Shown in pieces: positions 2,159-55,801 of a stretch of DNA of 64,000 bases (positions are counted from its first letter, which is position 1; each line of letters opens with the position of its first letter). The notes beneath the pieces were generated by a model. It was not told where the DNA came from and searched no databases. It saw only the letters and a list, made by a program, of their open reading frames with translations. This DNA is from a virus. The stretch lies in the IMG/VR virus record IMGVR_UViG_3300038466_000014; one strand, given 5' to 3'. The position numbers were made by a program, and so were the translations under genes.

Positions 2159-3582
2159 CAGATCCTCCTAACGGGCTTAGTACGTAAACACGATTTTTGA
2201 CTCTGCATAATATCAGCATGATCAATATTATCAACTCTACGTAGGTTTTTGGTATCCTTCATCCAAGTATTATGCCAGTACGAACTATCCAAGTTCATAA
2301 CCAATAATGATTTTTCAATATATTCCAACCCTTTAATCAATGCATTTATATCGAAACTATTCCATGAATCTCTAATGTAGTCTTCATTATCTCCGAGACA
2401 TACTTTACCAGACGAACGGCATATATTTGGATGAGATGCGTTTTCGGAGACAAACCGGATATTCGAGTTACTATCAAATCGTATAGACATATCTTTCACA
2501 TAACATTCGTTTGCGACTTCTTCAGGAATTAAAAACAACGTATTTTTAGAAATAATATATTTTGGAACTATGTTTACTTCTTTATAAAAATACCCGTTTT
2601 CATCTGGATTATATCCAAATGCTTTTAGTTTGGATATTGCCGAAATGGTTCTACTTAAAGTGTCTTTTAAATTGGATGCATTGTTAATATAAGCCGAATG
2701 TATTATCCGTTCCAATTTTACTCTATAAATCTTATTAAGGACCGATAGACCGATACCCGTAGTCTCCAATAGTTTGTCCAAGTGCTCGAATGCGCAATAA
2801 TTCCTTAAATTACATTCTTTTAATAAATAATTACTAATTTTTAAATTCATTTTATTTAAATGGATATTAATACCTTCCAGATAATTAATAATACATGATG
2901 AGTAATAAAAAACTGTTGATAAAATAGACAAGAGAGACTTTATCATATTTTTGTTTTTATGCTTTGTGTTTGTACAGGATACATTCCCTATCTGTGAGAG
3001 TAAGGACTGAATAACCGATGCGATGTTTAAAGTCAGCTTTAATGATATTATACCATCAGAATTAACGAATATACCTCCAATCGTGGTAGCATAATCCAAA
3101 CTAAAACATGTTAATAAATCATCATATGTTGGCAAGGATTCATTAACAAAATTGTTATCAAAATAAAACACTCGGATTTCTGGCGCCGCTAATGAACTCA
3201 TATTTATTTTTAGATGCGGAGATTCAACCGCTCTTGAATTTATATATGTAGAACCCGAGTCTTTTAATATGCTGGATATAACCAATCTATTTTTTTCGGT
3301 TATCTTTAAATTATTAGTTGCTTTTTCCGTTATATTTTTTATAGTCGAGTCACAACGGTCTGCTAATGCTGAATTATTGACAAAAAACGGCATCCAGCAT
3401 GTATAGTTATTTAACATGACATTTACGGTGTCTTCTAAATCTATAGGTGTAAACAAAATAAAGTCTATGATTTTTGTTATATCTTCTTGTGTTATATTTT
3501 CTACTTCGGTTATCATTTTGATGGTGTTTAAATGTTTATCATGATATTGCTTATTATATTCTTTGTTAATTAAAATGTTCAT
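2158..3582 (-). CDS. Protein with C-terminal prokaryotic E2 (UBC-like) domain
   Basis: SHPNICRSSGKVCLGD resembles the E2 HPN...G.(I/V)C catalytic motif; long N-terminal region unassigned; start overlaps the E1 gene junction. Confidence 0.7.
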   Translation of the reverse strand: MNILINKEYNKQYHDKHLNTIKMITEVENITQEDITKIIDFILFTPIDLEDTVNVMLNNYTCWMPFFVNNSALADRCDSTIKNITEKATNNLKITEKNRLVISSILKDSGSTYINSRAVESPHLKINMSSLAAPEIRVFYFDNNFVNESLPTYDDLLTCFSLDYATTIGGIFVNSDGIISLKLTLNIASVIQSLLSQIGNVSCTNTKHKNKNMIKSLLSILSTVFYYSSCIINYLEGINIHLNKMNLKISNYLLKECNLRNYCAFEHLDKLLETTGIGLSVLNKIYRVKLERIIHSAYINNASNLKDTLSRTISAISKLKAFGYNPDENGYFYKEVNIVPKYIISKNTLFLIPEEVANECYVKDMSIRFDSNSNIRFVSENASHPNICRSSGKVCLGDNEDYIRDSWNSFDINALIKGLEYIEKSLLVMNLDSSYWHNTWMKDTKNLRRVDNIDHADIMQSQKSCLRTKPVRRI

Positions 3583-3639
3583 GGCTCCTTCGGGTTGCGG
3601 GGGTGGCTGGGTATAAGGTCGGCCACCCCCGCAATAATA

Positions 3640-4290
3640 TTAGCAACCGGCCTTGTTGAACCTTTCGACCGTAAGTTCGATCAAAATAGAACTTCCGATC
3701 ACGTCTTCGGTAAGGCTGCTTACACACATTCCGCCGCGCGTTTTCGCAACGTAGTGAACAAATCCTTTATTAGCCGCAAACTCATCGATCGCATAAATGA
3801 TATCTTTTATATCCTCGACGACAAAGTTCTCGCCATTGATGGAAAGTACACGTTCTCCCGGACAAAGAACCGTTTCCTTTCCATCGATAATCACCTTATA
3901 AGTTGTATTGTCGATTGGAATGAATTGATACTTTGGGTTATTCGGAATAGTATATGTGGGAATCGAAGCGGTTTCGACTTCGGGAGGAGTTTCGACCGGA
4001 GGCGTAACGGTATTTTGCACAGTTGTATTGAGTGTATAAGCAAAATAAGAGCCATTAACAGTCTTTCTATGCAGAATCTTTTTATCGTACATATCGTTGA
4101 TCAGTTTCTTGAGGGGATCGCGAAGTTTCGTTTTGCCGAGTTTGTGTGCAATCATAGTAGCGGAAAGCGGCTGATTGTCGTTGCCTTCGAAAATGTCGAT
4201 AACGTCTTGTTCTTTAACCACATTCAGAGTGTCCACCATGAGTCGTTTTAACCTTTCTATGTTTGGTTTTTTACTAAGGATGAGAGTCAT
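3640..4290 (-). CDS. Winged-helix protein fused to a C-terminal ubiquitin-like domain (ends NKAGC)
   Basis: N-terminal LSATMIAHKLGKTK...LINDMYDKKILHR helix-turn-helix/wing pattern, P/T/E-rich linker, beta-rich C-terminus ending KAG-C; first gene of the E2-E1-JAB operon. Confidence 0.6.
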   Translation of the reverse strand: MTLILSKKPNIERLKRLMVDTLNVVKEQDVIDIFEGNDNQPLSATMIAHKLGKTKLRDPLKKLINDMYDKKILHRKTVNGSYFAYTLNTTVQNTVTPPVETPPEVETASIPTYTIPNNPKYQFIPIDNTTYKVIIDGKETVLCPGERVLSINGENFVVEDIKDIIYAIDEFAANKGFVHYVAKTRGGMCVSSLTEDVIGSSILIELTVERFNKAGC

Positions 4291-25472: not shown

Positions 25473-26567
25473 TTATTCCTTCGTAAGATATTGTTTTATT
25501 ATTTGCTGCCTTTTGGGGTTTAGTGCCCTCGGACCATTGTAACGGTCTTTTCCATACAGTTTCTGAATGATATAATGACGCAGTGGATTATCCTTCAACA
25601 CCACATTATAAATATTATTTTTATCATCTAAATTATAGTTTTTCTCCACATAATCAGCATTTGTGATTATATCGGATACAAATTTACTATATGCGTCTAT
25701 TATAGGTTGAAATAAATGTATTTTTTCCGGAAAAGTTGCAAGATACTCATCTTGCTCACAGTCCCATACCAAATTGATTATCTTTTTAAATGATAAATTA
25801 TTTCCTACCATTCGATGAAGAATCAAATATTCCGGATTTTTTACTTTGATTCTTAGCTGGGTTTTAGTATTCCATAAGACATATCCCTCGTCTCTTGGAG
25901 CAAGATCAACAAACGACTCTATCAGATTTTCGATAGTGTCAAAATTGTAAATCTTTGGCATTTCTATACCTATGGATTTGGCCGCTTCAAACATCCTATC
26001 TAAAGAATAATAATCGCCCGTATACGTGTGACGTACTCCAAGAAGTACGATTCTTGGGCGATCATAAATAGTCACATTCTGATTTTCTTTAAACGCGCCT
26101 TCCATAATGTATGTGTATGATTTATTCATATTTTTCATCTTATCGTTTATATCACCAAAGTATTTCTCAAATAGTTCTTTCCAAGTAAGCCGATCTCCAT
26201 CGAGATTTTGTTCCGCTTCGATCTGCCTTCTGGTCGAAACATACCAACTATTCTGATTGTTATCGAAATATACATTAAACATTGTACCATCTACTTTTTC
26301 CAATATCACGCTATTATCTAAATCTACAGAATCAACATCGTTTTCACCGAGGTTAAAAAATCGATCGAACGTTCTGCATACAGGATTATGATTTAGATCA
26401 AGAATTAACCCCCTGCACTCTACTACAATAGGATGCGTTTTAAACGGCCAACTATTAATCTGGTCATAATCCAGTCCTATTTTATGATTATAAAAATTAA
26501 TATGAATACCCAAATCTCTTAATGATTGCATGGATGGATCTTGTTCGAAAAGTTTTTGAACTTCCAT
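25473..26567 (-). CDS. RNA ligase, T4 Rnl1-like
   Basis: ECRGLIL, TFDRFFNLGE, EKVDGT (motif I), EGYV and KVKNPEY. Confidence 0.88.
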   Translation of the reverse strand: MEVQKLFEQDPSMQSLRDLGIHINFYNHKIGLDYDQINSWPFKTHPIVVECRGLILDLNHNPVCRTFDRFFNLGENDVDSVDLDNSVILEKVDGTMFNVYFDNNQNSWYVSTRRQIEAEQNLDGDRLTWKELFEKYFGDINDKMKNMNKSYTYIMEGAFKENQNVTIYDRPRIVLLGVRHTYTGDYYSLDRMFEAAKSIGIEMPKIYNFDTIENLIESFVDLAPRDEGYVLWNTKTQLRIKVKNPEYLILHRMVGNNLSFKKIINLVWDCEQDEYLATFPEKIHLFQPIIDAYSKFVSDIITNADYVEKNYNLDDKNNIYNVVLKDNPLRHYIIQKLYGKDRYNGPRALNPKRQQIIKQYLTKE

Positions 26568-26779: not shown

Positions 26780-27094
26780 TGGTGGGCGAGGGAGGAATCG
26801 AACCCCCAACATTTCGGTTCCCGTTTGTGTAGCTTTCGCTACTCCGTGGACTATTTCTTCACCCTCGATACACTGTAGGGTGTCGGGCGCTCTTGCCGGT
26901 CATTAAGGGGACTATACCCCTCCGGTAGTCTCTAAACGTTCCATAGGTGTACCTATGGCTTCGCTCGGAGTTGTCATGGGTAAAATTAATTTACCTTTAG
27001 ATTTCTCCGAATTCACCCAATCCACTCTATGTATTACTACATAGAGGCACAGTTGTCTATGAGCCGAAGGTTCTAACCGTTGAACTACTCGCCC
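26780..27094 (-). tRNA. tRNA(CAU), Ile2 or Met, split by a group I intron (exons 27059-27094 and 26780-26819)
   Basis: Spliced anticodon arm TTCGG-CT-CAT/AA-CCGAA; ends in CCA. Confidence 0.9.
26820..27058 (-). mobile_element. Group I intron (IC3, Azoarcus tRNA-Ile-like), ORF-less, 239 nt
   Basis: P1 guide GTG pairs exon CAU; GAATTCGGAGAAA, TAGAGACTA and ATAGTCCA core; ends GCGAAAGCTACACAAACGGG with terminal G. Confidence 0.9.
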
Positions 27095-28602: not shown

Positions 28603-28677
28603 TGGTGGGATCGGAAAGAATCGAACTTTCGTTTTCCCGCTTAAAAGGCGGGTGCCAAACCAATAGGCGACGATCCC
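28603..28677 (-). tRNA. tRNA-Lys(UUU)
   Basis: CCCGC-CT-TTT-AA-GCGGG; CCA. Confidence 0.92.
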
Positions 28678-28685
28678 TAAAGAAA

Positions 28686-28810
28686 TAGAGGACTGCTCCG
28701 TTAAACACTTTTTTTCTTTTGCTCTACCGTTGAGCTACACCCCGAAGTCGGGGTGAATGGAGTCGAACCATTACCCAAAGTTCCACGTTGAATGTTTAAC
28801 AGCACCTCTA
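28686..28810 (-). ncRNA. YrlA-like Y RNA 1 (permuted tRNA-like domain)
   Basis: Terminal stem TAGAGGTGC...GCAGTCCTCTA. The T-arm (GGTTCGACTCC) precedes the D-arm (TAGCTCAACGGTAGAGC) and the acceptor-like stem is closed by a loop. Confidence 0.8.
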
Positions 28811-28825
28811 TTAAACTGAAATGAA

Positions 28826-28898
28826 TGGGCGCTACAGGACTTGAACCTGTGACTTCCACCTTGTAAGGGTGGCACTCTCCCAACTGAGTTAAGCGCCC
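28826..28898 (-). tRNA. tRNA-Val(UAC)
   Basis: CCACC-CT-TAC-AA-GGTGG; no encoded CCA. Confidence 0.93.
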
Positions 28899-28907
28899 GG
28901 ATTCAAT

Positions 28908-28976
28908 ATGCGGGGACTAATGTTATGACGTATAGCGTCGTGAAAGGTCGTTGAACGTCACAACGACACCCCGCAT
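28908..28976 (-). ncRNA. Short Y-RNA-like element 2
   Basis: ATGCGGGGTGTCGTTGTGACGTTCAACG...ACGTCATAACATTAGTCCCCGCAT. Confidence 0.65.
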
Positions 28977-29029
28977 TAAACGTAAAAATTGGCGCGCCCG
29001 GCAGGAATCGAACCTGCGGCCTACGGATT

Positions 29030-29890
29030 CAGGTTTGTGTTACTTTCGTAACTTCCTGGACTTTCTCTTCACCGTGCGAAATATATCCTCCGTTTAGGTG
29101 GTGGCCGTCATTCATGTAGAAAGGGTTGAAGAACTATGCGCTTGGGTATTTCGATCTTATACTGCATTGATGGAATTATATATTCACCAAATAGATCTAC
29201 AAAACTTCGGGCTTGTTTGGTGCCACAACGTACACTAAACCTGCCTTTATTTCTTTTTTTGGTGAATGTTATTCCCCAAACTTCCGAAAAATAAGCAATG
29301 ATGATATCTACCTCTATTTCGGAGCAGTAAGTCGAAATAGACAAATCATAGGCATGAATTTGTCCATTACGTTTTTTGGCGCTAAGTCCTCCATCATCCA
29401 TATACCATATAGCAATGGCTTTCGGAGTTAACTTATCCAGAATTTTCCTGGATATAGTTTTTTTACCATCTTTATATAACCATTTATGCACGATTCTGAT
29501 ATAAGGAATACTTTTTTCGAATCCACAAGCTGGTAATAATCCGCTGAAAAATGGGTTCACCTTCGTCAGTTTACCTGTAATTTTCTCAATGAGACTGGCT
29601 TTATACTGTATGTATTCCTTTTGTTTTTCAGAATGTCGAATACACAAATGGGTATTTTTGTTGCGTCTAATGTGCCCATCTCCAATTGCCATTGCCATGA
29701 GTATACTCTTGTCATCCCTTGTCATTTTTCACACTCCTGTGTGATTTTTTGTTTTTCTACACGACAGTCTCTACACCTTCCTTATTTCTAAGGCTTGGCT
29801 CGGGATTACCACCGGCATTACCCGCTGAGGCTTCCCCGAATTTGACCACTTACACTCATAGGATTTCTCCTATGAGGCCCGTTTTTAAAC
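29030..29890 (-). mobile_element. Group I intron (IC3) carrying a LAGLIDADG ORF
   Basis: CAAATTCGGGGAAGCC, GGTAATCCCGAGCC, GTAGAGACT and AAAGTCCAGG...ACACAAACCTG core. Confidence 0.9.
29108..29725 (-). CDS. LAGLIDADG homing endonuclease (two-motif, I-SceI-like)
   Basis: LMAMAIGDGHI and IAIWYMDDGGL motifs; lies inside the intron. Confidence 0.88.
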   Translation of the reverse strand: MTRDDKSILMAMAIGDGHIRRNKNTHLCIRHSEKQKEYIQYKASLIEKITGKLTKVNPFFSGLLPACGFEKSIPYIRIVHKWLYKDGKKTISRKILDKLTPKAIAIWYMDDGGLSAKKRNGQIHAYDLSISTYCSEIEVDIIIAYFSEVWGITFTKKRNKGRFSVRCGTKQARSFVDLFGEYIIPSMQYKIEIPKRIVLQPFLHE

Positions 29891-30017
29891 AGAAGTCCGT
29901 CTCTCTTTCCAACTGAGATACGGGCGCAGTATATTATCTATTCGAACCGAAGACAAATTATAAAACACCTACGTAATCAGTTCGAACAATTCTTTATACA
30001 AATAAAGGAAATACACC

Positions 30018-30509
30018 ATGAACAACTGTAAGAAATGCGGGAAAGAAACCACTAATCCACATTTTTGTAGTAAATCCTGTTCTACGTCATACAATAATAG
30101 CATATGCTACAAAAGAACAAGAATACTTCGTCTATGTAAAAAATGTGGAAAAGATATTACATGTCTACATAAAATAAATGGGCATCCGCGTCGATTATGT
30201 GATGATTGTTTACCAACAATAAATCAAAATGTCACTTTAGGAGAACTTAGAGGTAGAAGGAAATATCAAAAAAGCTCGGTTGTTCGAGATATGGCACGAA
30301 GAGCTTGTTTTTCCCTTCTACAAGAACCTAAATGTGAAAACTGCGGATACAGAAAGCATGTAGAAGTGTGTCATATACGCCCTATTAAATCTTTCGATGA
30401 TTCAACCCCAATCGGAGTAGTTAACGCCAAAGACAATTTAGTTGTGCTATGTCCGAACTGTCATTGGGAATTAGATAATAGTATACTTTGTTTGTCTGAT
30501 TTTCGTTAA
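30018..30509 (+). CDS. Free-standing HNH endonuclease with zinc fingers
   Basis: CENCGY...VCHIRPI...NLVVLCPNCHWELD; AAGGA SD; one of very few plus-strand genes. Confidence 0.85.
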   Translation: MNNCKKCGKETTNPHFCSKSCSTSYNNSICYKRTRILRLCKKCGKDITCLHKINGHPRRLCDDCLPTINQNVTLGELRGRRKYQKSSVVRDMARRACFSLLQEPKCENCGYRKHVEVCHIRPIKSFDDSTPIGVVNAKDNLVVLCPNCHWELDNSILCLSDFR

Positions 30510-30521
30510 CAGTCAGAATAT

Positions 30522-30656
30522 ATTGTCAAGGACTTATTCCGGAACATTTTTTTACCGCTTTGCCGATTAAGCTACACCTCCATACGGAAGTGACGGGCCT
30601 CGAACCCGCAACAGTCGATTAAATGTCGTTGAATGTTCCAGGTTTACCTCGACAAT
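30522..30656 (-). ncRNA. YrlA-like Y RNA 3 (permuted tRNA-like domain)
   Basis: Terminal stem ATTGTCGAGGT...AGTCCTTGACAAT; GCGGGTTCGAGGCCCGT T-arm before the TAGCTTAATCGGCAAAGC D-arm. Confidence 0.78.
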
Positions 30657-30671
30657 TTTAAACCTAATTAA

Positions 30672-30748
30672 TGGTCTGGGTAAGTGGATTCGAACCACCG
30701 ACCCCCGGCTCCCAAAGCCGGTGCTCTACCAGACTGAGCCATACCCAG
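30672..30748 (-). tRNA. tRNA-Pro(UGG)
   Basis: CCGGC-TT-TGG-GA-GCCGG; CCA. Confidence 0.94.
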
Positions 30749-30760
30749 ACAAAAGAAGAA

Positions 30761-30830
30761 ATGCAGGGACTAATGCTATGACGTATTTTAGTTACCAATT
30801 AACGTTGAACGTCACAACGACACCCCGCAT
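30761..30830 (-). ncRNA. Short Y-RNA-like element 4
   Basis: Both stem arms nearly identical to element 2. Confidence 0.65.
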
Positions 30831-30929
30831 TATTTTAACAACGAAAAAATCAATCTTTGACCATTTGAGAAATATGTCATAAAATTCTTATAACATATTC
30901 CTCTTAATATTCAATATATACAATAAATC

Positions 30930-32453
30930 TTAATTTCTGTTTTGACGAATGGTTTCCATACATCTGATAACATCTATCACACTGTCATTCCATCCAAAAA
31001 TTTGAGTTACATTATATCTTTTAGCATCCTCATTGGAAATGGGACGGTGCGGATATGGATCAACTCGAATCATGTAAGCTCGGGCATTTGGATAAGCGGA
31101 ATGATATCGTTTCCACTCATTAGTAAATCCTTCGCCGAATTCCTCATTGTCTGTTATCAAAATAAATATATCTGTTTCGATTTTATTCTGGAGAAGGTAT
31201 CTTACAGGAAGCTCCATATAGGTTCCACCGCCGTTTGACGCTCTAATCTTTTCGATGTGTGTAAACACGGAATCTGTTTTTGGTACTGTGTATTTATGTA
31301 CCTCGGTATCCCATGGAACAACCATCGAATTCTGTAATCCTTTATATAGAAATCCTGTAAACATTCCGGCAATAAGAGATGGATATATTAAAGATTTTCC
31401 GTTCTTAATACCAGTAGTCATAGATCCAGAAACATCCGGAGCAATAACCACTTTTTTATCTTTGAACACTTCCCAATCAGCAATAGTTACATATTGGTCT
31501 AACACTTCGCGAATATGACCGGAAACATCTTTATCAAAACTTTTCTCGTTTAAATTTTCAAGCAGTGTAAACAACCGGAACGGGAGAACTTTTGCCCGTT
31601 TAAGATTTTCAGCGGTAATTTTCTTCCTCATAGTGTCTTTATCCAGCGCGTCCTCTCTGATCAATTTATTCATATATTTGATGTATGCCATTACGCCCAT
31701 CTGATTACCCAACTCTTTCCAAATCGCCGAATTGAGGTCGGGCATACCTGTAAATGAAATTGGATCAAGTCTATGTTCTTTAATCAGGTTAACAGCGTTT
31801 TTCGTTTTCTTATTTTGAATCTCAATTTTAGCTTGTTCAAAAGCATTTAACATCGGATATTTTTCAAGGGATTCTCCGAACTTCGGAGATGTACGTCCAT
31901 GATATTTCAAAATATAATCATAAATACAGTCTTCCGTTTTAAATCTTGCAAGTCTTACCATATTCCCAATCTGTTTTGTATATTTTAAAGCATAGAACGG
32001 AGTAACCCGTTCTTTTGCCCATCGTTCCATTGCTGATTTTATACCTCTTCCAAATCCACGATTATTCGCTCTGACAAGCGAAATAAAATCTTCCATATCG
32101 TTTCCGGTAATAATAACGGAATTGAAAATCCTTTGAAATTCTCTGATATTATATTTAGAAAGAATAACCAGCCCAAGGATAGGGGCTGTGCGGATGAATC
32201 CTTCAGTCCTTCCTTTTACAATCGCATTCGCCAGTGTATATGGTTCTCTTTGAGCAACCTCATTTATAAATCCGACAAATTCATTAATCTGATCTTTTCT
32301 TGACATATAAAATGTTGGATTCATTGTTCCGGTCATCATCAATTGTTCGAGTCTGTTAACATCATTGGGGATGTATGATTTACCCCCTTCGAAATTAACT
32401 GTTTCGGTTTTCTCTGTGGTCACTCGTTTTACAGTAGCCGCGATTTTTCTCAT
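30930..32453 (-). CDS. TROVE-domain Ro60/Rsr RNA-binding protein
   Basis: NFEGGKSY, RGFGRG, VLPFRLF and vWA MIDAS APDVSGSM...LITDNE. Confidence 0.92.
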   Translation of the reverse strand: MRKIAATVKRVTTEKTETVNFEGGKSYIPNDVNRLEQLMMTGTMNPTFYMSRKDQINEFVGFINEVAQREPYTLANAIVKGRTEGFIRTAPILGLVILSKYNIREFQRIFNSVIITGNDMEDFISLVRANNRGFGRGIKSAMERWAKERVTPFYALKYTKQIGNMVRLARFKTEDCIYDYILKYHGRTSPKFGESLEKYPMLNAFEQAKIEIQNKKTKNAVNLIKEHRLDPISFTGMPDLNSAIWKELGNQMGVMAYIKYMNKLIREDALDKDTMRKKITAENLKRAKVLPFRLFTLLENLNEKSFDKDVSGHIREVLDQYVTIADWEVFKDKKVVIAPDVSGSMTTGIKNGKSLIYPSLIAGMFTGFLYKGLQNSMVVPWDTEVHKYTVPKTDSVFTHIEKIRASNGGGTYMELPVRYLLQNKIETDIFILITDNEEFGEGFTNEWKRYHSAYPNARAYMIRVDPYPHRPISNEDAKRYNVTQIFGWNDSVIDVIRCMETIRQNRN

Positions 32454-32472
32454 TGTCTCTCCATTTTCGTAC

Positions 32473-32496
32473 TAAGGGACTTTTTAACAACCCCTA
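32473..32496 (-). promoter_or_regulatory. Mini Y-stem hairpin in the Ro60 leader
   Basis: TAGGGGTTGTTAAAAAGTCCCTTA reproduces the GGT.../...AGTCC terminal motif of the Y-like RNAs, about 20 nt before the start. Confidence 0.45.
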
Positions 32497-32512
32497 CAGG
32501 CTGAGACTAAAA

Positions 32513-32581
32513 TTCAGGAACTAATGTCGTAACGTATGTTTCGTTTCCAATTAACGTTGAACGTCACGACGACACCCCGAA
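32513..32581 (-). ncRNA. Short Y-RNA-like element 5
   Basis: TTCGGGGTGTCGTCGTGACGTTCAACG...ACGTTACGACATTAGTTCCTGAA. Confidence 0.65.
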
Positions 32582-32586
32582 AAAAG

Positions 32587-32664
32587 TTAGAGGACTATAT
32601 CAAAGGCATCAAGACCGATTATTTTTGAAATTAATTGTTGTTGAATGCCTTTGGCCACCTCTAA
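32587..32664 (-). ncRNA. Short Y-RNA-like element 6
   Basis: TTAGAGGTGGCCAAAGGCATTCAAC...ATGCCTTTGATATAGTCCTCTAA. Confidence 0.6.
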
Positions 32665-32674
32665 TTCAAAAATA

Positions 32675-32757
32675 TTTACGAGGACTACAATGAAGCATTT
32701 TGTTCACGTAGGACATTTTTGGGATGTTTCGTTGAATGCCTCAAAACACCTCGTAAA
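32675..32757 (-). ncRNA. Short Y-RNA-like element 7
   Basis: TTTACGAGGTGTTTTGAGGCATTCAACG...ATGCTTCATTGTAGTCCTCGTAAA. Confidence 0.6.
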
Positions 32758-32771
32758 GTCATAAGTCTATA

Positions 32772-32844
32772 TACTCCTGACGTGGTTCGAACCCGTAATT
32801 CCGGCTTGAAGGGCCAGGATCTTAGCCGATTAGACGACAGGAGC
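32772..32844 (-). tRNA. tRNA-Glu(UUC)
   Basis: CTGGC-CC-TTC-AA-GCCGG; one T-stem mismatch; no CCA. Confidence 0.82.
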
Positions 32845-32847
32845 TTT

Positions 32848-32922
32848 TGGAGCTGGTAACGGGAATTGAACCCGTACATCCAGATTGGAAGTCTGGAACT
32901 CTGCCAGTTGAGTTATACCCGC
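32848..32922 (-). tRNA. tRNA-Gly(UCC)
   Basis: CCAGA-CT-TCC-AA-TCTGG; one acceptor mismatch; CCA. Confidence 0.88.
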
Positions 32923-33152: not shown

Positions 33153-33227
33153 GGTGAATGGTGGGATTTGAACCCACAACCTCCGAGGCCACAACCCGGC
33201 GCTCTAACCAATTGAGCTACATCCACC
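33153..33227 (-). tRNA. tRNA-His(GUG)
   Basis: G-1:C73; CCGGG-TT-GTG-GC-CTCGG. Confidence 0.9.
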
Positions 33228-33240
33228 AAAACAGAATAAC

Positions 33241-33510
33241 GGAACCAAACAACAGCCGGAAGTGCGGTTGAGGTAAAAGGATCCTCAGCACTTAAGTCCG
33301 GATTTAATGAGACTTGAATCATAAATTCTTAATCTTAAAATTCTGAGGCTTGATTTCTGAACCTTGAATCTTTAAGTTTATAATTAGGTTCCGATTGTAA
33401 GTCGGAGTCGTCCCATTTATTTGTCGTGCCTAACGGGGTCACGCCGCCTTTTATTTCTACCTGTTTACGCTGCCGATTCCGTTTTGTAATCCGTTTATCC
33501 GTAGACCCGT
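33241..33510 (-). ncRNA. Candidate structured RNA with imperfect heptamer repeats
   Basis: Non-coding. CGGAACC...GGTTCCG closing helix, about 9 (A/C)TT(C/T)AAG-like units, nested CCGG/AAGTGC/TGAGG hairpin. Confidence 0.4.
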
Positions 33511-33514
33511 GTTT

Positions 33515-34185: not shown

Positions 34186-35193
34186 TTACAGATTATACAT
34201 ACTTGATAGTATTGATGCTGCATATCTGCCTTGTTTGAATATCATTCGATTTTGATGTTGTTCGGTAATCCTCTCCAACTCATCCGCATAATCACTTCTA
34301 AAATCTTTTTCCGCATCCTCTACAATCAACGGAATAAAATATTCAAAATCTTTTTTTGATTTTAATTGTCTTATTTCTTTAGATAGAACATTCTTAATTC
34401 TGTTTTCGTTTATATATCCTGAAAATATATTATAGAGACGGACAGCCCCCTCTCCAACTTCTTTTTTCTCTGACGGAGTGCTTCCTTCGGAGAACTCTAC
34501 GTTTTTAATCTTAAACTTAAATTCGTGAGTACGGTCATTCATCATTCTAATGACACATCCTTCTATCGGTAAATTTTTCTTTGGATTGAGTGGAGAAAGT
34601 TTCGACGGGATTCTAATATCTGTTTTAACAATATTATCAAGACCTTTTTCTATATTTATAACTGGAACATATACAGACATCAAACCTAATTCAATTAGCA
34701 AATCTATTTCCTGATTAACAGACATTCTTTGATCATCCTGAATTATATAAAACAATCTAAAATTCTTTTTGAATTTATTATCTTCTATATATGAAATTTC
34801 GTTCATTACCCCAGATCCAAAATATTCACCATACCAAATCATATTTTTGTTTGTAATTTTTGAATATTCGTCCATTGTTTTCAACATATCAGAACATAGG
34901 ATATAATCACCTTTGACATCAAATATAATTTTCCCTTTTGTGAAATATGACTGATAATCATAGAATTTTTCACTCTGTGCCGAATCAATATATCCAAGAA
35001 ATGCGTTTCTTCTTGCAAACACGGGTTTATCGGAATTAGAGGTATAAATAGAAAAATTGGTTCCGTGAATCTTTTCTGTAGCAACAAATTCTGTTTCTGA
35101 ATCGTATACTTCAGAATTTATATAATTATCAAAAAATCGTTTATTGTGATATCCTTCTATGATACTAAACTTTCGATGGATACGTTTTTCCAT
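34186..35193 (-). CDS. RNA ligase, T4 Rnl2-like
   Basis: ATEKIHGTNFS, YGEYFG, EGCVIR, FKIKNVEFSE and YINENRIKNVLSK motifs. Confidence 0.92.
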   Translation of the reverse strand: MEKRIHRKFSIIEGYHNKRFFDNYINSEVYDSETEFVATEKIHGTNFSIYTSNSDKPVFARRNAFLGYIDSAQSEKFYDYQSYFTKGKIIFDVKGDYILCSDMLKTMDEYSKITNKNMIWYGEYFGSGVMNEISYIEDNKFKKNFRLFYIIQDDQRMSVNQEIDLLIELGLMSVYVPVINIEKGLDNIVKTDIRIPSKLSPLNPKKNLPIEGCVIRMMNDRTHEFKFKIKNVEFSEGSTPSEKKEVGEGAVRLYNIFSGYINENRIKNVLSKEIRQLKSKKDFEYFIPLIVEDAEKDFRSDYADELERITEQHQNRMIFKQGRYAASILSSMYNL

Positions 35194-35647: not shown

Positions 35648-35884
35648 TTATGCCGGAACAAAGATCCATGTATTAGGCTGTTGCGGTTCTGGTATTTTAC
35701 CGTCTTTTCGAGAACAGCAAAACCACGGTAAATCTTCGACCTTTCTTCCAGATTCCGCATATTCCGAGAAGGCGTAGAGAAATGCCATATGGAAGGGTTT
35801 ATCCTTCCACTTTTCGATAATCTCAGGATCGTGCAGCATTGTTTTAAAATGATTATTTTCCATGAGTTCTAACTCCTCCACCAC
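35648..35884 (-). CDS. hypothetical protein
   Basis: Overlaps the end of the PurA-like gene. Confidence 0.6.
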   Translation of the reverse strand: MVEELELMENNHFKTMLHDPEIIEKWKDKPFHMAFLYAFSEYAESGRKVEDLPWFCCSRKDGKIPEPQQPNTWIFVPA

Positions 35885-37302
35885 GAATTATTTGTTATAT
35901 TTTTGTCTTTATATGTCGACCCATTTGAAATCAAAACAACCGGAAGCTCTAAATATTTTTCAACGAAACTTACAAATTTGGTTCTCCAATCCTTGCCTGT
36001 AAATTCTTTATATATGGGCTTCGCGTATTGTAAAATAGCCGTTCTGTTTGGGATATGCTCGGAAAAACATTCTATCTTATCGTTATCTGGTTGATAACTA
36101 TCTGGATATATCTCTGTCTTATTGGTTGTTTCATTAAAATGTTCGGAAACAGCATCCCGTCCTACGCGATAAACAACATCATTCAAATTATATTTAACAC
36201 ATACCTTAATACCATCGAGTTTTTGAAGGGTATCATAATGAGTCATAACAATACCTCTTATACCTCCCATATGGGCCGCATAAGAGGTAGCCACTAAATC
36301 CGGCCATCCAGTCCGAAAATCTCCCTGCCATTCGTTCATTATATTGTGTTTTTCATCCATTACTGATTTTAAATCCGGATCTTCTGTTACAAACGGACCA
36401 TTTCCGTGTCTTGTCATCAAAGTGCGCATAACACCCAATACTTTTATATCATCCCAATCGCAATTACCACACGAAGGATACTGATACTCCAAATTATCTG
36501 TTTTTGTAATATACGGAGCAAATCCATAAGACGGATTTAACAATATACCCTGTCCGCTTTCATAAATGGTAATATTGTTATTGTCGATTAAATCAGATAC
36601 ATGAACTTCATTATGAGTATCTATGTTATGTTTTTCTATTATGGTATAGTACGAATCCAAAAGATTCTCAATATATTGTTTCGTACTCATTGAACTCAGC
36701 TTTTGAAAAAATCCATATTGGTGAAGCACTTCTCTGTTCTTATCAGTCACTAATTTTTTAAATTCATCGTTTGTATATTCCATAAGGTCTGCTATAAAAT
36801 CGTGAATTTTAGGTAAATTCAGACTACTTAACCTAATTGAGAGATCATCCTTCACAACGGATTGTCTGTGCGTTTCTCCAACACCGCAACCGACTGTTCC
36901 CAATCTATTATCCAATCTTGCGGTTTCTCTTGCCATGCCGAGAATTACATGATATGGAGTAATAAGTCTGGTTTTATGATCTACGAACAATCTATTATCA
37001 ATGGTGTGTATTTTTTCTTTGATGATGTCTATCTCCCGATCCAGGGTTAAAAGATCCAGATAAGTCTGACACATAACATATCCGGTAGCTTCATCATGAG
37101 ACAGTAAATTGGATGTTAACTGACTAAAACAATGATGTCTTCCATCCGGTCTAACTACGTTGTGGGCACATTGGGATCCGCCATGATATCGGATAACCGC
37201 GCTTTTTCCATATACGCTACCCAAATAGTCAATCGTCGTTCCTTTTCCTTCATCTCCATATCCAAGACCCAGGACTACAATTATATTATTTTGTCCCGCC
37301 AT
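35869..37302 (-). CDS. Divergent adenylosuccinate synthetase (PurA)-like protein
   Basis: GLGYGDEGKG, RYHGGSQCAHNV, GTVGCGVGET, YESGQGILL and TRHGNGPFVTE motifs. Confidence 0.88.
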   Translation of the reverse strand: MAGQNNIIVVLGLGYGDEGKGTTIDYLGSVYGKSAVIRYHGGSQCAHNVVRPDGRHHCFSQLTSNLLSHDEATGYVMCQTYLDLLTLDREIDIIKEKIHTIDNRLFVDHKTRLITPYHVILGMARETARLDNRLGTVGCGVGETHRQSVVKDDLSIRLSSLNLPKIHDFIADLMEYTNDEFKKLVTDKNREVLHQYGFFQKLSSMSTKQYIENLLDSYYTIIEKHNIDTHNEVHVSDLIDNNNITIYESGQGILLNPSYGFAPYITKTDNLEYQYPSCGNCDWDDIKVLGVMRTLMTRHGNGPFVTEDPDLKSVMDEKHNIMNEWQGDFRTGWPDLVATSYAAHMGGIRGIVMTHYDTLQKLDGIKVCVKYNLNDVVYRVGRDAVSEHFNETTNKTEIYPDSYQPDNDKIECFSEHIPNRTAILQYAKPIYKEFTGKDWRTKFVSFVEKYLELPVVLISNGSTYKDKNITNNSWWRS

Positions 37303-54409: not shown

Positions 54410-55801
54410 CTACAACTCTTCCCATGCTGTGTTTTCCCATACATCATCAAATGTCACAAATCCTTTGGTATCAGAATGGATCATACCTACACTGCATTTC
54501 ATGATCCTCTCCGAGAGGTTTGTTACTGATGACGCAAGAACACCAATGTTTCTTGAACGTACTTGTTGGAACAGATTACCATAACACACAGGACACACAT
54601 CTCTGGTCTTACAGAATACGGGAGATCTTATTTCCACAGTTTTTCCGATCATTTTTTCTGAAATAGGTTCATATTTATCTACACCTGTAATAACATTTCT
54701 TCCTCCCATTTTATCGAATATCTCTTTCGTAAGTTTAACCTTTAATCCTCTTCGCGTTCCACAGTTTTTGACCTCTTTATTCAGCATAACATCGGAAACT
54801 ATATACAAGGTCTTTCTTGCACTATAACCGCCAAATGCAGTATTCAAAGCCCTGTCTATTGTACCTTTTCTTGATCCGGCGGAAGCTTTAAAATACTCTT
54901 CTGGGGTATATCCTTCCGCGAGAGATCTTGTAATAGGAGGTAGAACGTTTCCTTTCGGATCCGATATCAAACCTTTGGCAACCATAATCTGTCTAATCTG
55001 CTCTTTACCCTTGGATGCTCCGGAAGCTACTTGAATATATAGATCAGGATGGGCTATTTTTAGAAAGTCTACAAGTTCATCTTCCATCTCACTAATAATT
55101 TTTGATTGTTTACCAACATCTTTCTCTTTTGCCAGATCCAGTTTTAACTGCTCCAATTTAGGAGAAATAGTCATCATATCCAAAGAAAAAGATAACGGAT
55201 GTTGAGTGGCATACTTAAACGCAAGTCTCATAAGAACATCAATGGTTTTAACAAAATCCGCCTGATTTTTAGATATGACCTGCTGCATAAGTCTTTTCAA
55301 TTGTTTTTTGTCTACTGGATAATCCACGTATGGAAACCACTCGGGCAACGTATTGTTAAATAAAATTTTACCAACAGTTGTTCTTCTTTTAGCTCCTTTA
55401 TAATCAATTATTATATTATGACCAATATCATATTTGGAAATGTCCTGAATCTTGTTAATAGTGGTCGGATGGTTCTTATCGTCATAATATGTCAATGTAA
55501 ACACACCTGTAATCATCTCTTGAGTAAGGCTAAAGTTCATATCGTTTGTATGATTGGCTCCAGTAGCGGAAACCATCTGGGTTTTAATTTCCTGTTGGGC
55601 CTCCTCACTAAGAACAGCGAAGACCGCCATGGTGTCTTCTACAAACACCCCATCGAATGTACTAAATGTAAAATTATTCTTTACAGTCATATCACATCCT
55701 TTAGTCTTATTTTTATCGTATATAATCTCGATCTCAAAAGCTGGAATCAGTTCTATGTTCTTAAAATTATATTTTGATGAATGCATAATAGAAACAATCA
55801 T
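54410..55801 (-). CDS. C-intein 1 (55634-55801) + RNAP beta-prime part 3 + short N-intein 2 (54410-54496)
   Basis: CDMTVKNNFTFSTFDGVFVED/TMAVF; TTVGKILFN, SGASKG, EEYFKASAGSRKGTIDRA, RSPVFC...CPVCYG, SERIMK/CSVG. Confidence 0.88.
   Translation of the reverse strand: MIVSIMHSSKYNFKNIELIPAFEIEIIYDKNKTKGCDMTVKNNFTFSTFDGVFVEDTMAVFAVLSEEAQQEIKTQMVSATGANHTNDMNFSLTQEMITGVFTLTYYDDKNHPTTINKIQDISKYDIGHNIIIDYKGAKRRTTVGKILFNNTLPEWFPYVDYPVDKKQLKRLMQQVISKNQADFVKTIDVLMRLAFKYATQHPLSFSLDMMTISPKLEQLKLDLAKEKDVGKQSKIISEMEDELVDFLKIAHPDLYIQVASGASKGKEQIRQIMVAKGLISDPKGNVLPPITRSLAEGYTPEEYFKASAGSRKGTIDRALNTAFGGYSARKTLYIVSDVMLNKEVKNCGTRRGLKVKLTKEIFDKMGGRNVITGVDKYEPISEKMIGKTVEIRSPVFCKTRDVCPVCYGNLFQQVRSRNIGVLASSVTNLSERIMKCSVGMIHSDTKGFVTFDDVWENTAWEEL

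What the first reader, a model, noticed from the sequence alone, without database searches (positions are those of the whole stretch)
28686..32757. Seven Y-RNA-like genes around Ro60 sharing a GGT / AGTCC stem and an invariant TTCAAC
Seen: two elements have a circularly permuted tRNA-like domain (T-arm before D-arm) and five are ~70-80-nt stem-loops. All begin (G/A)GGT, carry RCRTTCAAC where the 5' stem strand ends, and end AGT(C/T)C, with compensatory stem changes between copies. Established: YrlA tRNA mimics occur next to Ro60 genes, including in some phages. The number of copies, the short class with swappable loops and the TTCAAC motif are new to me. Inference: a family of Ro60 adaptors or decoys, each loop recruiting a different partner.
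Basis: partly seen in the sequence, partly recalled or inferred. Interest (0 to 1): 0.82.

Follow-up and report, generated by a model that had tools for sequence, protein, structure and literature searches.

The report
Phage Ro60 with seven Y RNAs
A large groundwater phage carries a Ro60 RNA-surveillance gene surrounded by seven small partner RNAs ("Y RNAs") that share one conserved stem and an invariant UUCAAC; the same undescribed RNA family sits beside related Ro60 genes in other big phages (up to nine copies) and in the RNA-repair operons of some bacteria.

Summary
Seven elements lie on the minus strand, the strand of Ro60 and of all 12 tRNAs. Two are YrlA-type permuted tRNA mimics and five are 69-83-nt hairpins. 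All share a closing stem ending in GG, then a U paired to the A of an A-GU-CC tail, an internal loop, an 8-10-bp upper stem and UUCAAC.

A covariance model built from them finds 82 copies in 26 of 35 Ro60 loci. All 82 are on Ro60's strand, and 79 lie within 2 kb of the gene. It finds none in 709 kb of unrelated viral DNA. About 94% of cells form standard pairs, against 60% after shuffling, and 16 of 17 pairs show compensatory changes. UUCAAC is identical in 82 of 82. One UCCAAC variant turned up in a motif-free scan.

Related phage contigs carry 5-9 copies interleaved with tRNAs. Lentisphaerae and Kiritimatiellae MAGs carry 1-4 copies in the leader of rtcR-controlled rsr-rtcA-rtcB operons.

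The protein is a true Ro60. The RNAs lack the published Ro-binding motifs (GNCGAAN0-1G, GGUCCGA), and no Rfam family reaches its gathering score.

Verdict: a real Y-RNA subfamily with a new handle, expanded in phages. Ro60 binding, discrete transcripts and loop-specific partners remain untested. This scan noted other phage Ro60-like "handle RNA" families before, but none with this handle.

The parts
30930..32453 (-). Ro60 (Rsr/TROVE2-type) gene, 507 aa: HEAT-repeat ring plus vWA domain with the MIDAS residues DxSxS..T..D conserved
   Evidence: Pfam vWA_Ro60 3.8e-11, above its cut-off; TROVE weak. A profile of 30 homologues hits human RO60 9nen at 4.4e-38, Xenopus 1yvp at 3.5e-37, Deinococcus Rsr 2nvo at 5.6e-25 and phage phiLo 9kop at 1.1e-22. 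AF2 model pLDDT 85.8. The top 13 Foldseek PDB hits are all Ro60, with TM up to 0.77. Invariant D340, S342, S344, T411 and D435.
28684..28812 (-). E1: YrlA-type Y RNA. Handle, UUCAACG, V region, T arm (AUGG-UUCGACU-CCAU), closed 7-bp acceptor-like stem, UA, D arm (GCUC-AACGGUA-GAGC), A-rich linker.
   Evidence: Rfam YrlA 35.9 bits, E 1.2e-5, below the gathering score of 69; fold z -4.74; R2 37.6 bits
28908..28976 (-). E2: short hairpin Y RNA (handle plus 25-nt loop)
   Evidence: R2 60.3 bits; z -3.78
30522..30656 (-). E3: YrlA-type Y RNA with permuted tRNA-like domain
   Evidence: Rfam YrlA 37.0 bits, E 5.5e-6; R2 43.4 bits; z -4.37
30760..30831 (-). E4: short hairpin Y RNA, paralogue of E2 and E5
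   Evidence: R2 68.8 bits; z -4.95
32513..32581 (-). E5: short hairpin Y RNA, 59 nt upstream of the Ro60 start codon; tail AGUUC (closing G.U)
   Evidence: R2 63.7 bits; z -2.28
32587..32664 (-). E6: short hairpin Y RNA (UUCAACA variant of the seventh base)
   Evidence: R2 50.9 bits; z -3.10
32675..32757 (-). E7: short hairpin Y RNA
   Evidence: R2 46.1 bits; z -3.34
28603..28677 (-). tRNA-Lys(UUU), 6 nt downstream of E1
   Evidence: ARAGORN, Rfam, spacing
28826..28898 (-). tRNA-Val(UAC), between E2 (9-nt gap) and E1 (13-nt gap)
28990..29927 (-). tRNA-Arg(UCU)-like gene split in the anticodon loop by a group I intron of about 870 nt that carries a LAGLIDADG ORF (29108-29725); E2 starts 13 nt after it
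   Evidence: Intron_gpI 37.6 bits; LAGLIDADG_2 2.9e-28; the joined exons fold as a tRNA in ARAGORN
30672..30748 (-). tRNA-Pro(UGG), between E4 (11-nt gap) and E3 (15-nt gap)
32772..32922 (-). tRNA-Gly(UCC) and tRNA-Glu(UUC), immediately upstream of E7 (14-nt gap)

Best explanation
This is a phage-encoded Ro60 ribonucleoprotein system: one Ro60 ring protein and seven Y RNAs. Every RNA has the same handle. It consists of a closing stem, an invariant U-A pair next to a 2-nt 3' bulge (GU), a small internal loop, a freely covarying 8-10-bp helix and the invariant UUCAAC(G) where that helix opens. I infer that the handle is the Ro60-docking module, and that UUCAAC together with the GGU / A-GU-CC junction replaces the GGUCCGA and GNCGAA motifs of other Y RNAs. 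The distal part varies. In E1 and E3 it is a permuted tRNA mimic; in E2 and E4-E7 it is a small hairpin plus an A-enriched single strand. By analogy with known Y RNAs, it would tether Ro60 to other proteins (exoribonucleases such as PNPase, or tRNA-binding enzymes) or gate Ro60's cavity. The genes lie in one minus-strand tRNA array with 3-15-nt spacers. They are therefore most likely made as one precursor and released by RNase P and the tRNA 3'-end machinery. With Rnl1, Rnl2 and the phage tRNAs, the unit would maintain or remodel RNA during infection. Shown here: the sequences, the structure by covariation, the linkage to Ro60 and the identity of the protein. Inferred: Ro60 binding, processing, partners and biological role.
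For: Structure: 93.9% of cells form standard pairs against 60.1% after shuffling. The covariation score is 0.849 against at most 0.151 when the partner is slid. 16 of 17 pairs change on both sides, and the U-A pair is 81/81.

Linkage: 82 model hits in 26 of 35 Ro60 loci, 82/82 on Ro60's strand, 79/82 within 2 kb. There are 0 hits in 709 kb of other viral contigs, and only these seven in the 64-kb window.

Cellular relatives lie between a sigma-54 promoter with divergent rtcR and rsr-rtcA-rtcB. This is the operon type in which YrlA and YrlB were found (PMC4201824).

Metatranscriptome contigs from one bovine-gut study cover a relative's Y RNA plus the rsr start, and nothing upstream of it.

E1 and E3 match YrlA stem for stem.

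UUCAAC is 82/82, while the other loop positions vary.

The protein is a full-length Ro60.

Interleaving with tRNAs recurs in related phage contigs L001 and L004.

Precedents: Y RNAs tether Ro60 to PNPase; M. smegmatis Y RNAs are cut from one precursor (PMC4201824); phage phiLo Ro60 binds two phage Y-like RNAs and host PNPase (PMC12135203).
Against: There is no RNA data for this phage: only groundwater DNA runs hold it. Discrete RNAs and their ends are therefore unproven. No binding data exist. The published Ro-recognition motifs are absent from all seven, so the docking role of the handle rests on co-inheritance alone. Two phage-like loci with Ro60 at about 40-42% identity (L010, L013) show no such RNA within about 5 kb. 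The model was trained on UUCAAC-bearing seeds, so part of the 82/82 is ascertainment. A motif-free scan did find one UCCAAC member, L004:9313-9446. Promoter and terminator scans are uninformative.
Confidence: 0.72

Rival explanations
1. The handle stem binds Ro60, but UUCAAC is not a Ro60 contact. It is instead a structural module or the site of a second factor. For example, it could be a T-loop-like pentad (UUCAA equals T54-Psi55-C56-A57-A58) stacked on the upper helix. It could also be an elaborated version of the conserved YUAY kink that begins the V region of YrlA.
For: UUCAAC sits exactly where the Rfam YrlA consensus has CUA, and where Chen 2014 and Wang 2018 place the conserved YUAY / U23-A24 kink (PMC4201824; bioRxiv 10.1101/312249). 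UUCAA is the T-loop sequence of several tRNAs in this same window. Chloroflexota YrlA-like RNAs have UUCGAU or UUCGCC at that place. In Xenopus, Ro60 contacts mainly the 5' strand of the lower helix, not the distal junction (quoted in PMC4201824).
Against: The motif is just as invariant in hairpins that have no tRNA-like core to fold against. No closing 53:61-type pair is conserved, by my reading of the sequences. Its invariance tracks the Ro60 clade.
Confidence: 0.3
2. The elements act mainly in cis. They would be Ro60-binding or structural sites in the leader and trailer of the Ro60 message that autoregulate or stabilise it, or hairpins that protect neighbouring tRNAs from exonucleases, rather than free trans-acting Y RNAs.
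For: In the bacterial loci they lie in the 5' leader between the sigma-54 promoter and rsr. RNA contigs join the element to the rsr start. In the window, E5-E7 end 59 nt before the Ro60 start codon.
Against: E1-E3 lie 0.3-2.1 kb downstream of Ro60 and are separated from it by tRNAs, by an HNH gene on the other strand and by an intron-split tRNA. The two tRNA-mimic members match a class shown experimentally to be free, Ro60-bound RNAs processed from operon transcripts (PMC4201824). Copy numbers of 5-9 with diversified distal modules are hard to explain by leader regulation.
Confidence: 0.12
3. The elements have nothing to do with Ro60. They would be degenerate or pseudo-tRNAs, repetitive extragenic palindromes or miniature mobile elements that happen to accumulate in phage tRNA arrays.
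For: They sit among tRNAs, homing endonuclease genes and introns, a region prone to insertions. E2, E4 and E5 are near-duplicates.
Against: They occur next to Ro60 in bacterial rtc operons that have no tRNA array. There is none elsewhere in the 64-kb window or in 709 kb of other viral DNA. The strand bias is strict, 82/82. Covariation with an invariant single-stranded motif is the signature of a functional RNA, not of a DNA repeat. ARAGORN and the Rfam tRNA model do not call them.
Confidence: 0.03

Closest known systems
YrlA (Rfam RF02553), the tRNA-mimicking Y RNA of Salmonella, Mycobacterium, other bacteria and 22 phages (Chen et al. 2014, PMC4201824; Wang et al. 2018, bioRxiv 10.1101/312249, PDB 6cu1)
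   Same: E1 and E3 share its whole plan. A long 5'/3' stem with an internal loop leads into a V region, T arm, closed acceptor-like stem, UA and D arm. They are encoded within 4 kb of Ro60 on the same strand. The bacterial relatives sit in rtcR-controlled rsr/rtcA/rtcB operons.
   Different: They score only 36-37 bits against a gathering score of 69. The defining 5' motif GNCGAAN0-1G is absent. The handle has other invariants: G-U..., A-(G/U)U-CC and UUCAAC. UUCAAC stands where YrlA has YUAY.
YrlB (Salmonella, M. smegmatis) and Yrn2 (D. radiodurans): the second, hairpin-type Y RNAs (PMC4201824)
   Same: E2 and E4-E7 are short stem-loop RNAs. They share the Ro-binding end with the tRNA-like sibling, lack the tRNA core and are encoded beside it.
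   Different: The published ones have a small pyrimidine-rich loop and, for Salmonella YrlB, the GNCGAA motif. Here the loop starts with UUCAAC(G), usually holds a mini-hairpin and ends A-enriched. There are five copies rather than one.
Thermus phage phiLo Ro60 with Yrl1 and Yrl2 (PMC12135203; PDB 9KOP, 9L5Y)
   Same: A phage Ro60 with phage-encoded Y-like RNAs next to the gene. It is the only phage system with binding data: Ro60-Yrl, and ternary complexes with host PNPase.
   Different: phiLo has two RNAs, recognised through a CGAA motif in a large bulge. Its protein is a more distant relative (profile E 1e-22 against 4e-38 for human RO60). It has no tRNA interleaving and no UUCAAC.
Metazoan Y RNA paralogue sets (human Y1, Y3, Y4, Y5) bound by Ro60
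   Same: Several paralogous RNAs have a conserved Ro60-binding stem and divergent distal loops that bind different proteins. This Ro60 clade is closer in sequence to animal Ro60 than to Deinococcus Rsr.
   Different: The animal motif is the bulged helix GGUCCGA/UUGAC; only the GGU is shared. Animal Y RNAs are Pol III transcripts with a La-binding U tail, not units of a tRNA array.
Felix O1-type phage Ro60-like protein (Bas63 gp130, reported to counter the Ppl defence; PMC11482910) with 'handle' RNAs in the tRNA array
   Same: A Ro60-shaped phage protein lies next to about four small stem-closed RNAs in tRNA spacers. Each has a constant stem plus an invariant single-stranded motif right after the 5' strand.
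   Different: That protein family is only structurally Ro60-like, and its handle motif is ACAGCAAA according to the earlier notes, which I did not test. The family here is a true Ro60 with a UUCAAC handle.

Membership tests
Y RNA (functional class: Ro60-bound ncRNA) | Encoded close to a Ro60 gene, on the same strand (bacterial and phage Y RNAs: within about 4 kb) | tested here: met
   All seven lie within 2.2 kb of Ro60 on its strand. Homologues: 82/82 on the same strand, 79/82 within 2 kb.
Y RNA (functional class: Ro60-bound ncRNA) | The 5' and 3' ends pair into a long stem that carries a conserved Ro60-binding site | tested here: met
   A two-part terminal stem is supported by covariation, and the junction nucleotides are invariant (U-A 81/81).
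Y RNA (functional class: Ro60-bound ncRNA) | Carries one of the known Ro60-recognition sequences (GGUCCGA in animals and Deinococcus; GNCGAAN0-1G in YrlA/YrlB) | tested here: not met
   A regex search of all seven finds neither motif. The corresponding positions covary freely.
Y RNA (functional class: Ro60-bound ncRNA) | Physically bound to and stabilised by Ro60; accumulates as a discrete small RNA | not testable with these tools
   No RNA run holds the phage. For a bacterial relative there are only assembled metatranscriptome contigs covering the element plus the rsr start.
YrlA (Rfam RF02553) | Reaches the family's gathering score (69 bits) | tested here: not met
   E3 scores 37.0 bits and E1 35.9 bits. 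E2 and E4-E7 have no hit even at E<=10.
YrlA (Rfam RF02553) | Permuted tRNA-like core: T arm, closed acceptor-like stem, UA, D arm, in that order inside the terminal stem | tested here: met
   Met for E1 and E3 only. Not present in E2 or E4-E7.
YrlA (Rfam RF02553) | Conserved YUAY at the start of the V region | tested here: inconclusive
   UUCAAC occupies the aligned position (model CUA against UCA). It resembles YUAY but does not match it.
Ro60 / Rsr (TROVE + vWA ring protein) | Full-length similarity to solved Ro60 proteins, ring fold, vWA domain with MIDAS residues | tested here: met
   Pfam vWA_Ro60 is above its cut-off. Profile against PDB gives 4.4e-38 over residues 6-462. Foldseek TM is 0.77 to 1yvp. 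DxSxS, T and D are invariant. Pfam TROVE alone is below its cut-off (16.1 against 23 bits).
tRNA | Cloverleaf with open acceptor stem and anticodon arm, recognised by tRNA finders | tested here: not met
   ARAGORN and the Rfam tRNA model tRNAs in the window, none at E1-E7.

The most novel reading that the evidence does not exclude
UUCAAC together with the G-U / A-GU-CC junction is a new Ro60 recognition code, co-evolved with one Ro60 clade shared by PVC bacteria and large phages. The phages have expanded it into arrays of 5-9 Y RNAs whose exchangeable distal modules (tRNA mimics, multi-hairpin modules, A-rich loops) couple one Ro60 ring to several different host or phage RNA enzymes, or act as decoys for tRNA-targeting defences. 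That would make it a programmable adaptor set embedded in, and processed with, the phage tRNA operon.
Probability: 0.3. Interest if true: 0.78.

Novelty: new variant of a known kind. Interest (0 to 1): 0.6.

Why it matters
Ro60-Y RNA particles are conserved from bacteria to humans, where they are a major lupus and Sjogren autoantigen. How bacterial and phage Ro60 recognise their RNAs, and what the RNAs recruit, is known for only a handful of cases.

This family gives about 80 natural sequence variants of one handle, with a sharply defined set of invariant nucleotides. That makes the recognition question directly testable by EMSA, by co-structure and by mutagenesis of six bases.

It also shows that large phages keep whole batteries of Y RNAs inside their tRNA operons, next to RNA ligases. 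This points to a role for Ro60 particles in the RNA-level conflict between phage and host.

Finally, it supplies the missing Y RNAs for the rsr-rtcAB operons of Lentisphaerae and Kiritimatiellae, which are common gut and rumen bacteria.

Tried and rejected
(1) Rfam at gathering and at E<=10. There are only sub-threshold YrlA hits for E1 and E3 and nothing for the five hairpins, so the family is not catalogued in Rfam.

(2) Nucleotide search of GenBank phages. Only tRNAs match. tblastn with the Ro60 protein finds isolates at 25% identity or less (Streptomyces, Gordonia and Mycobacterium phages, Mx1), so no cultured relative is available.

(3) Single-protein scan of IMG/VR found nothing. The alignment-based scan found 5 loci.

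The model rejects all 80 listed loci. This served as a negative control but not as a census.

(5) MAFFT alignments of the elements were off by one column in several rows. I therefore seeded the model with six rows that fitted the structure and re-aligned with Infernal.

(6) Expression: no RNA run holds the phage. For a bacterial relative there are only assembled contigs, so ends and strand cannot be read.

(7) The sigma-70 promoter and terminator scan gave no enrichment.

(8) I considered a canonical T arm formed by UUCAAC, with a 53:61 closing pair, and a D-arm mimic (the motif resembles GYUCAACGG of D arms). No consistent closing pair exists in the seven copies, so both remain speculation.

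(9) The whole genome is not held. The Chen 2014 supplements are not held, so I could not check whether any Lentisphaerae YrlA was in their list. The two reviews by Sim and Wolin are not held.

Full report
WHAT IS THERE. The region 28.6-33.2 kb of the window is one minus-strand block. Read 5' to 3' on that strand, it contains:
- tRNA-His and a 64-codon ORF
- tRNA-Gly and tRNA-Glu
- E7, E6 and E5
- Ro60 (30930-32453)
- E4, tRNA-Pro and E3
- an HNH endonuclease gene on the opposite strand
- a tRNA-Arg(UCU)-like gene split by a group I intron with a LAGLIDADG ORF
- E2, tRNA-Val, E1 and tRNA-Lys

Gaps between neighbouring RNA genes are 3-15 nt. The window is phage-like. It carries an SbcC-like nuclease, a helicase, topoisomerase II subunits, Rnl1- and Rnl2-type RNA ligases, a PurZ-like enzyme and an RNA polymerase beta-like protein. 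It has 12 tRNAs, all on one strand. DNA runs that hold it come from groundwater metagenomes. No whole genome is held and no GenBank phage is close.

THE OBSERVATION. The shared anatomy, 5' to 3', is:
- a closing stem of 7-10 bp ending in G-C, G-C (G.U in E5)
- a U that can pair with the A of the 3' tail A-GU-(C/U)C, leaving GU as a 2-nt bulge
- a 3-5-nt / 3-6-nt internal loop
- an 8-10-bp upper helix
- UUCAAC, followed by G in six of seven
- a variable distal part
- an A-enriched run
- the returning strands

E1 and E3 carry a V region, T arm, closed 7-bp acceptor-like stem, UA and D arm. They are the only Rfam hits: YrlA at 35.9 and 37.0 bits, below the gathering score of 69. E2, E4 and E5 are close paralogues. 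E6 and E7 are more distant. The composite pattern occurs 4 times against 0.03 expected. There are no further copies in the 64 kb.

IS IT A REAL RNA FAMILY? Homologues of the Ro60 protein (at most 50% identical) led to 39 other loci. A structural descriptor found the same element in them. So did two covariance models: R1 from six seeds and R2 from the 41 first hits.

R2 gives 82 hits at E<=0.1 in 26 of 35 sources. All 82 are on Ro60's strand, and 79 lie within 2 kb of the gene. In 80 unrelated IMG/VR loci (709 kb) it gives none.

On the 81 distinct sequences, 93.9% of cells form standard pairs, against 60.1% after shuffling. Sixteen of 17 pairs change on both sides. The covariation score is 0.849, against at most 0.151 when the 3' partner is slid by 1-3 columns (one search gives the same picture for the first 41). 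The alignment was fitted to the structure, which inflates these numbers somewhat, but the margin is very large. Frequent G.U pairs fix the strand; for example, the last upper-stem pair is U.G in 52 of 81.

INVARIANTS. UUCAAC is identical in 82 of 82. The next base is G in 51, U in 19, C in 6 and A in 6. No other loop position is conserved. The 5' U and its partner A are 81/81. The base before the U is G in 76 of 81. The tail is AGUCC in the phage loci and mostly AUUCC in the bacterial ones.

Because the models were trained on UUCAAC, I also ran a motif-free descriptor. Every strongly structured hit it printed carried the motif, except L004:9313-9446, which has UCCAAC. The output was cut, so this check is not exhaustive. 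The first one or two U's are often paired with the purine-rich 3' end of the loop. They never covary, which points to a constraint on sequence as well as on pairing.

WHERE ELSE. Phage-like contigs carry arrays:
- L004 (also fetched as L011), a 315-kb IMG/VR contig: 9-10 copies
- L001: 7 copies
- L005: 5 by the model and 7 with the descriptor
- L007: 5-6 copies
- L012, L009 and L003: 2 each

tRNAs lie between the copies in L001 and L004, and RtcB or other RNA ligases are nearby. Distal modules fall into three kinds: tRNA-like, two or three hairpins, or a single loop.

MAG contigs of Lentisphaerae, Victivallaceae and Kiritimatiellae carry 1-4 copies. There the order is divergent rtcR, a sigma-54 promoter (TGGCAC-N5-TTGC), the RNAs, rsr, rtcA and rtcB. 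This is the RNA-repair operon type in which Salmonella YrlA and YrlB were discovered (PMC4201824).

Contigs from two bovine-gut metatranscriptome runs of one study lie on L019:3808-4034. That covers the RNA (3840-3908) plus the rsr start, with nothing upstream. This fits transcription from the sigma-54 promoter. It is weak evidence, because contigs show neither strand nor ends and DNA carry-over cannot be excluded.

Two phage loci (L010, L013) and the more distant Ro60 loci show no such RNA. The distant loci are from Chloroflexota, an archaeal MAG and a Clostridia MAG, at 31-37% identity. The Chloroflexota locus has YrlA-like RNAs with UUCGAU or UUCGCC at the equivalent place.

THE PROTEIN. 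The evidence for a true Ro60 is:
- Pfam vWA_Ro60 above its cut-off
- profile hits to human, Xenopus, Deinococcus and phage phiLo Ro60 over the full length
- a confident AF2 model whose 13 best PDB matches are all Ro60, with TM up to 0.77
- conserved MIDAS residues

HOW IT MOST LIKELY WORKS. Shown: the structure, the conservation, and the linkage to a true Ro60 and to RNA-repair genes.

Inferred:
- The handle is the Ro60-docking module of this clade, and the GGU / A-GU-CC junction and UUCAAC replace GGUCCGA and GNCGAA, which are absent.
- The RNAs are cut out of a tRNA-array precursor by RNase P and the tRNA 3'-end enzymes. The support is the 3-15-nt spacers and the published single-precursor processing in M. 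smegmatis.
- The distal modules tether Ro60 to other proteins or gate it, as in RYPER and in phage phiLo (PMC4201824, PMC12135203).

The biological role is open. It could be RNA quality control or repair together with Rnl1, Rnl2 and the tRNAs, or counter-defence. The one functional hint for a Ro60-like phage protein is Bas63 gp130, reported to counter the Ppl defence (PMC11482910).

Whether UUCAAC touches Ro60 or forms a T-loop- or kink-like module at the YUAY position cannot be decided here. I put direct Ro60 recognition at roughly 50%.

COMPARISON AND NOVELTY. Ro60 with YrlA-type RNAs in phages is published. So is the presence of at least two Y RNAs per genome, one tRNA-like and one hairpin (PMC4201824; PMC12135203). 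The following appeared in no paper that my three searches returned and are matched by no Rfam family at its gathering score:
- this handle
- its invariance across a Ro60 clade spanning phages and PVC bacteria
- arrays of 5-9 copies interleaved with tRNAs
- short members that look like YrlA with the tRNA core deleted

The scan's earlier notes describe analogous arrays beside Ro60-like genes of Felix O1-type phages, but with a different handle. None mention UUCAAC. I class this as a new variant of a known kind, with interest about 0.6.

Noticed in passing
window 28990-29927 (-): A tRNA-Arg(UCU)-like gene is interrupted in the anticodon loop by a group I intron of about 870 nt. The intron carries a LAGLIDADG homing endonuclease ORF (29108-29725). 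The joined exons fold as a tRNA, and CCA appears to be encoded.
   Followed up: partly
window about 26780-27094 (-): A second tRNA, with anticodon CAU (Met/Ile type), is split by a group I intron with a clear Rfam match (26827-27070, 72.3 bits). ARAGORN misses the gene until the exons are joined.
   Followed up: partly
window 35869-37302 (-): A 477-aa ORF matches phrog_1211, '2-aminooxy adenylosuccinate synthetase' (PurZ-like), at E 1.6e-59. This hints that the phage may replace adenine by 2-aminoadenine (a Z genome).
   Followed up: no
window 25473-26567 (-) and 34186-35193 (-): An Rnl1-type RNA ligase (phrog_562, 2.1e-45) and an Rnl2-type RNA ligase (Pfam RNA_ligase plus T4_Rnl2_C) bracket the tRNA / Y-RNA / Ro60 block, so the whole stretch looks like an RNA supply-and-repair hub.
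   Followed up: partly
window 33227-33514: About 290 nt between tRNA-His and the next ORF have no ORF of note and no Rfam hit. I did not examine this stretch for structure.
   Followed up: no
L017:1845-7741, L028:1653-7587, L019:3757-3775, L029 about 3575-3600: In Victivallaceae and Lentisphaeria MAGs the order is divergent rtcR, a sigma-54 promoter (TGGCAC-N5-TTGC), 1-4 UUCAAC-type Y RNAs, rsr, rtcA and rtcB. The Y RNAs lie in the operon leader, not between rsr and rtcB as in Salmonella.
   Followed up: partly
L001:3756-3826 (+): A match to Rfam int-alpA RNA (RF02996, 48.6 bits, above its gathering score of 35.8) lies just downstream of Ro60 and before a NUMOD4-HNH endonuclease gene in a related phage contig.
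   Followed up: no
window 54410-55801 (-): An ORF resembles phage multisubunit RNA polymerase beta subunits (phrog_2962, 1.9e-30), as in jumbo phages that bring their own RNA polymerase. If so, host-type promoter scans say little about how the array is transcribed.
   Followed up: no
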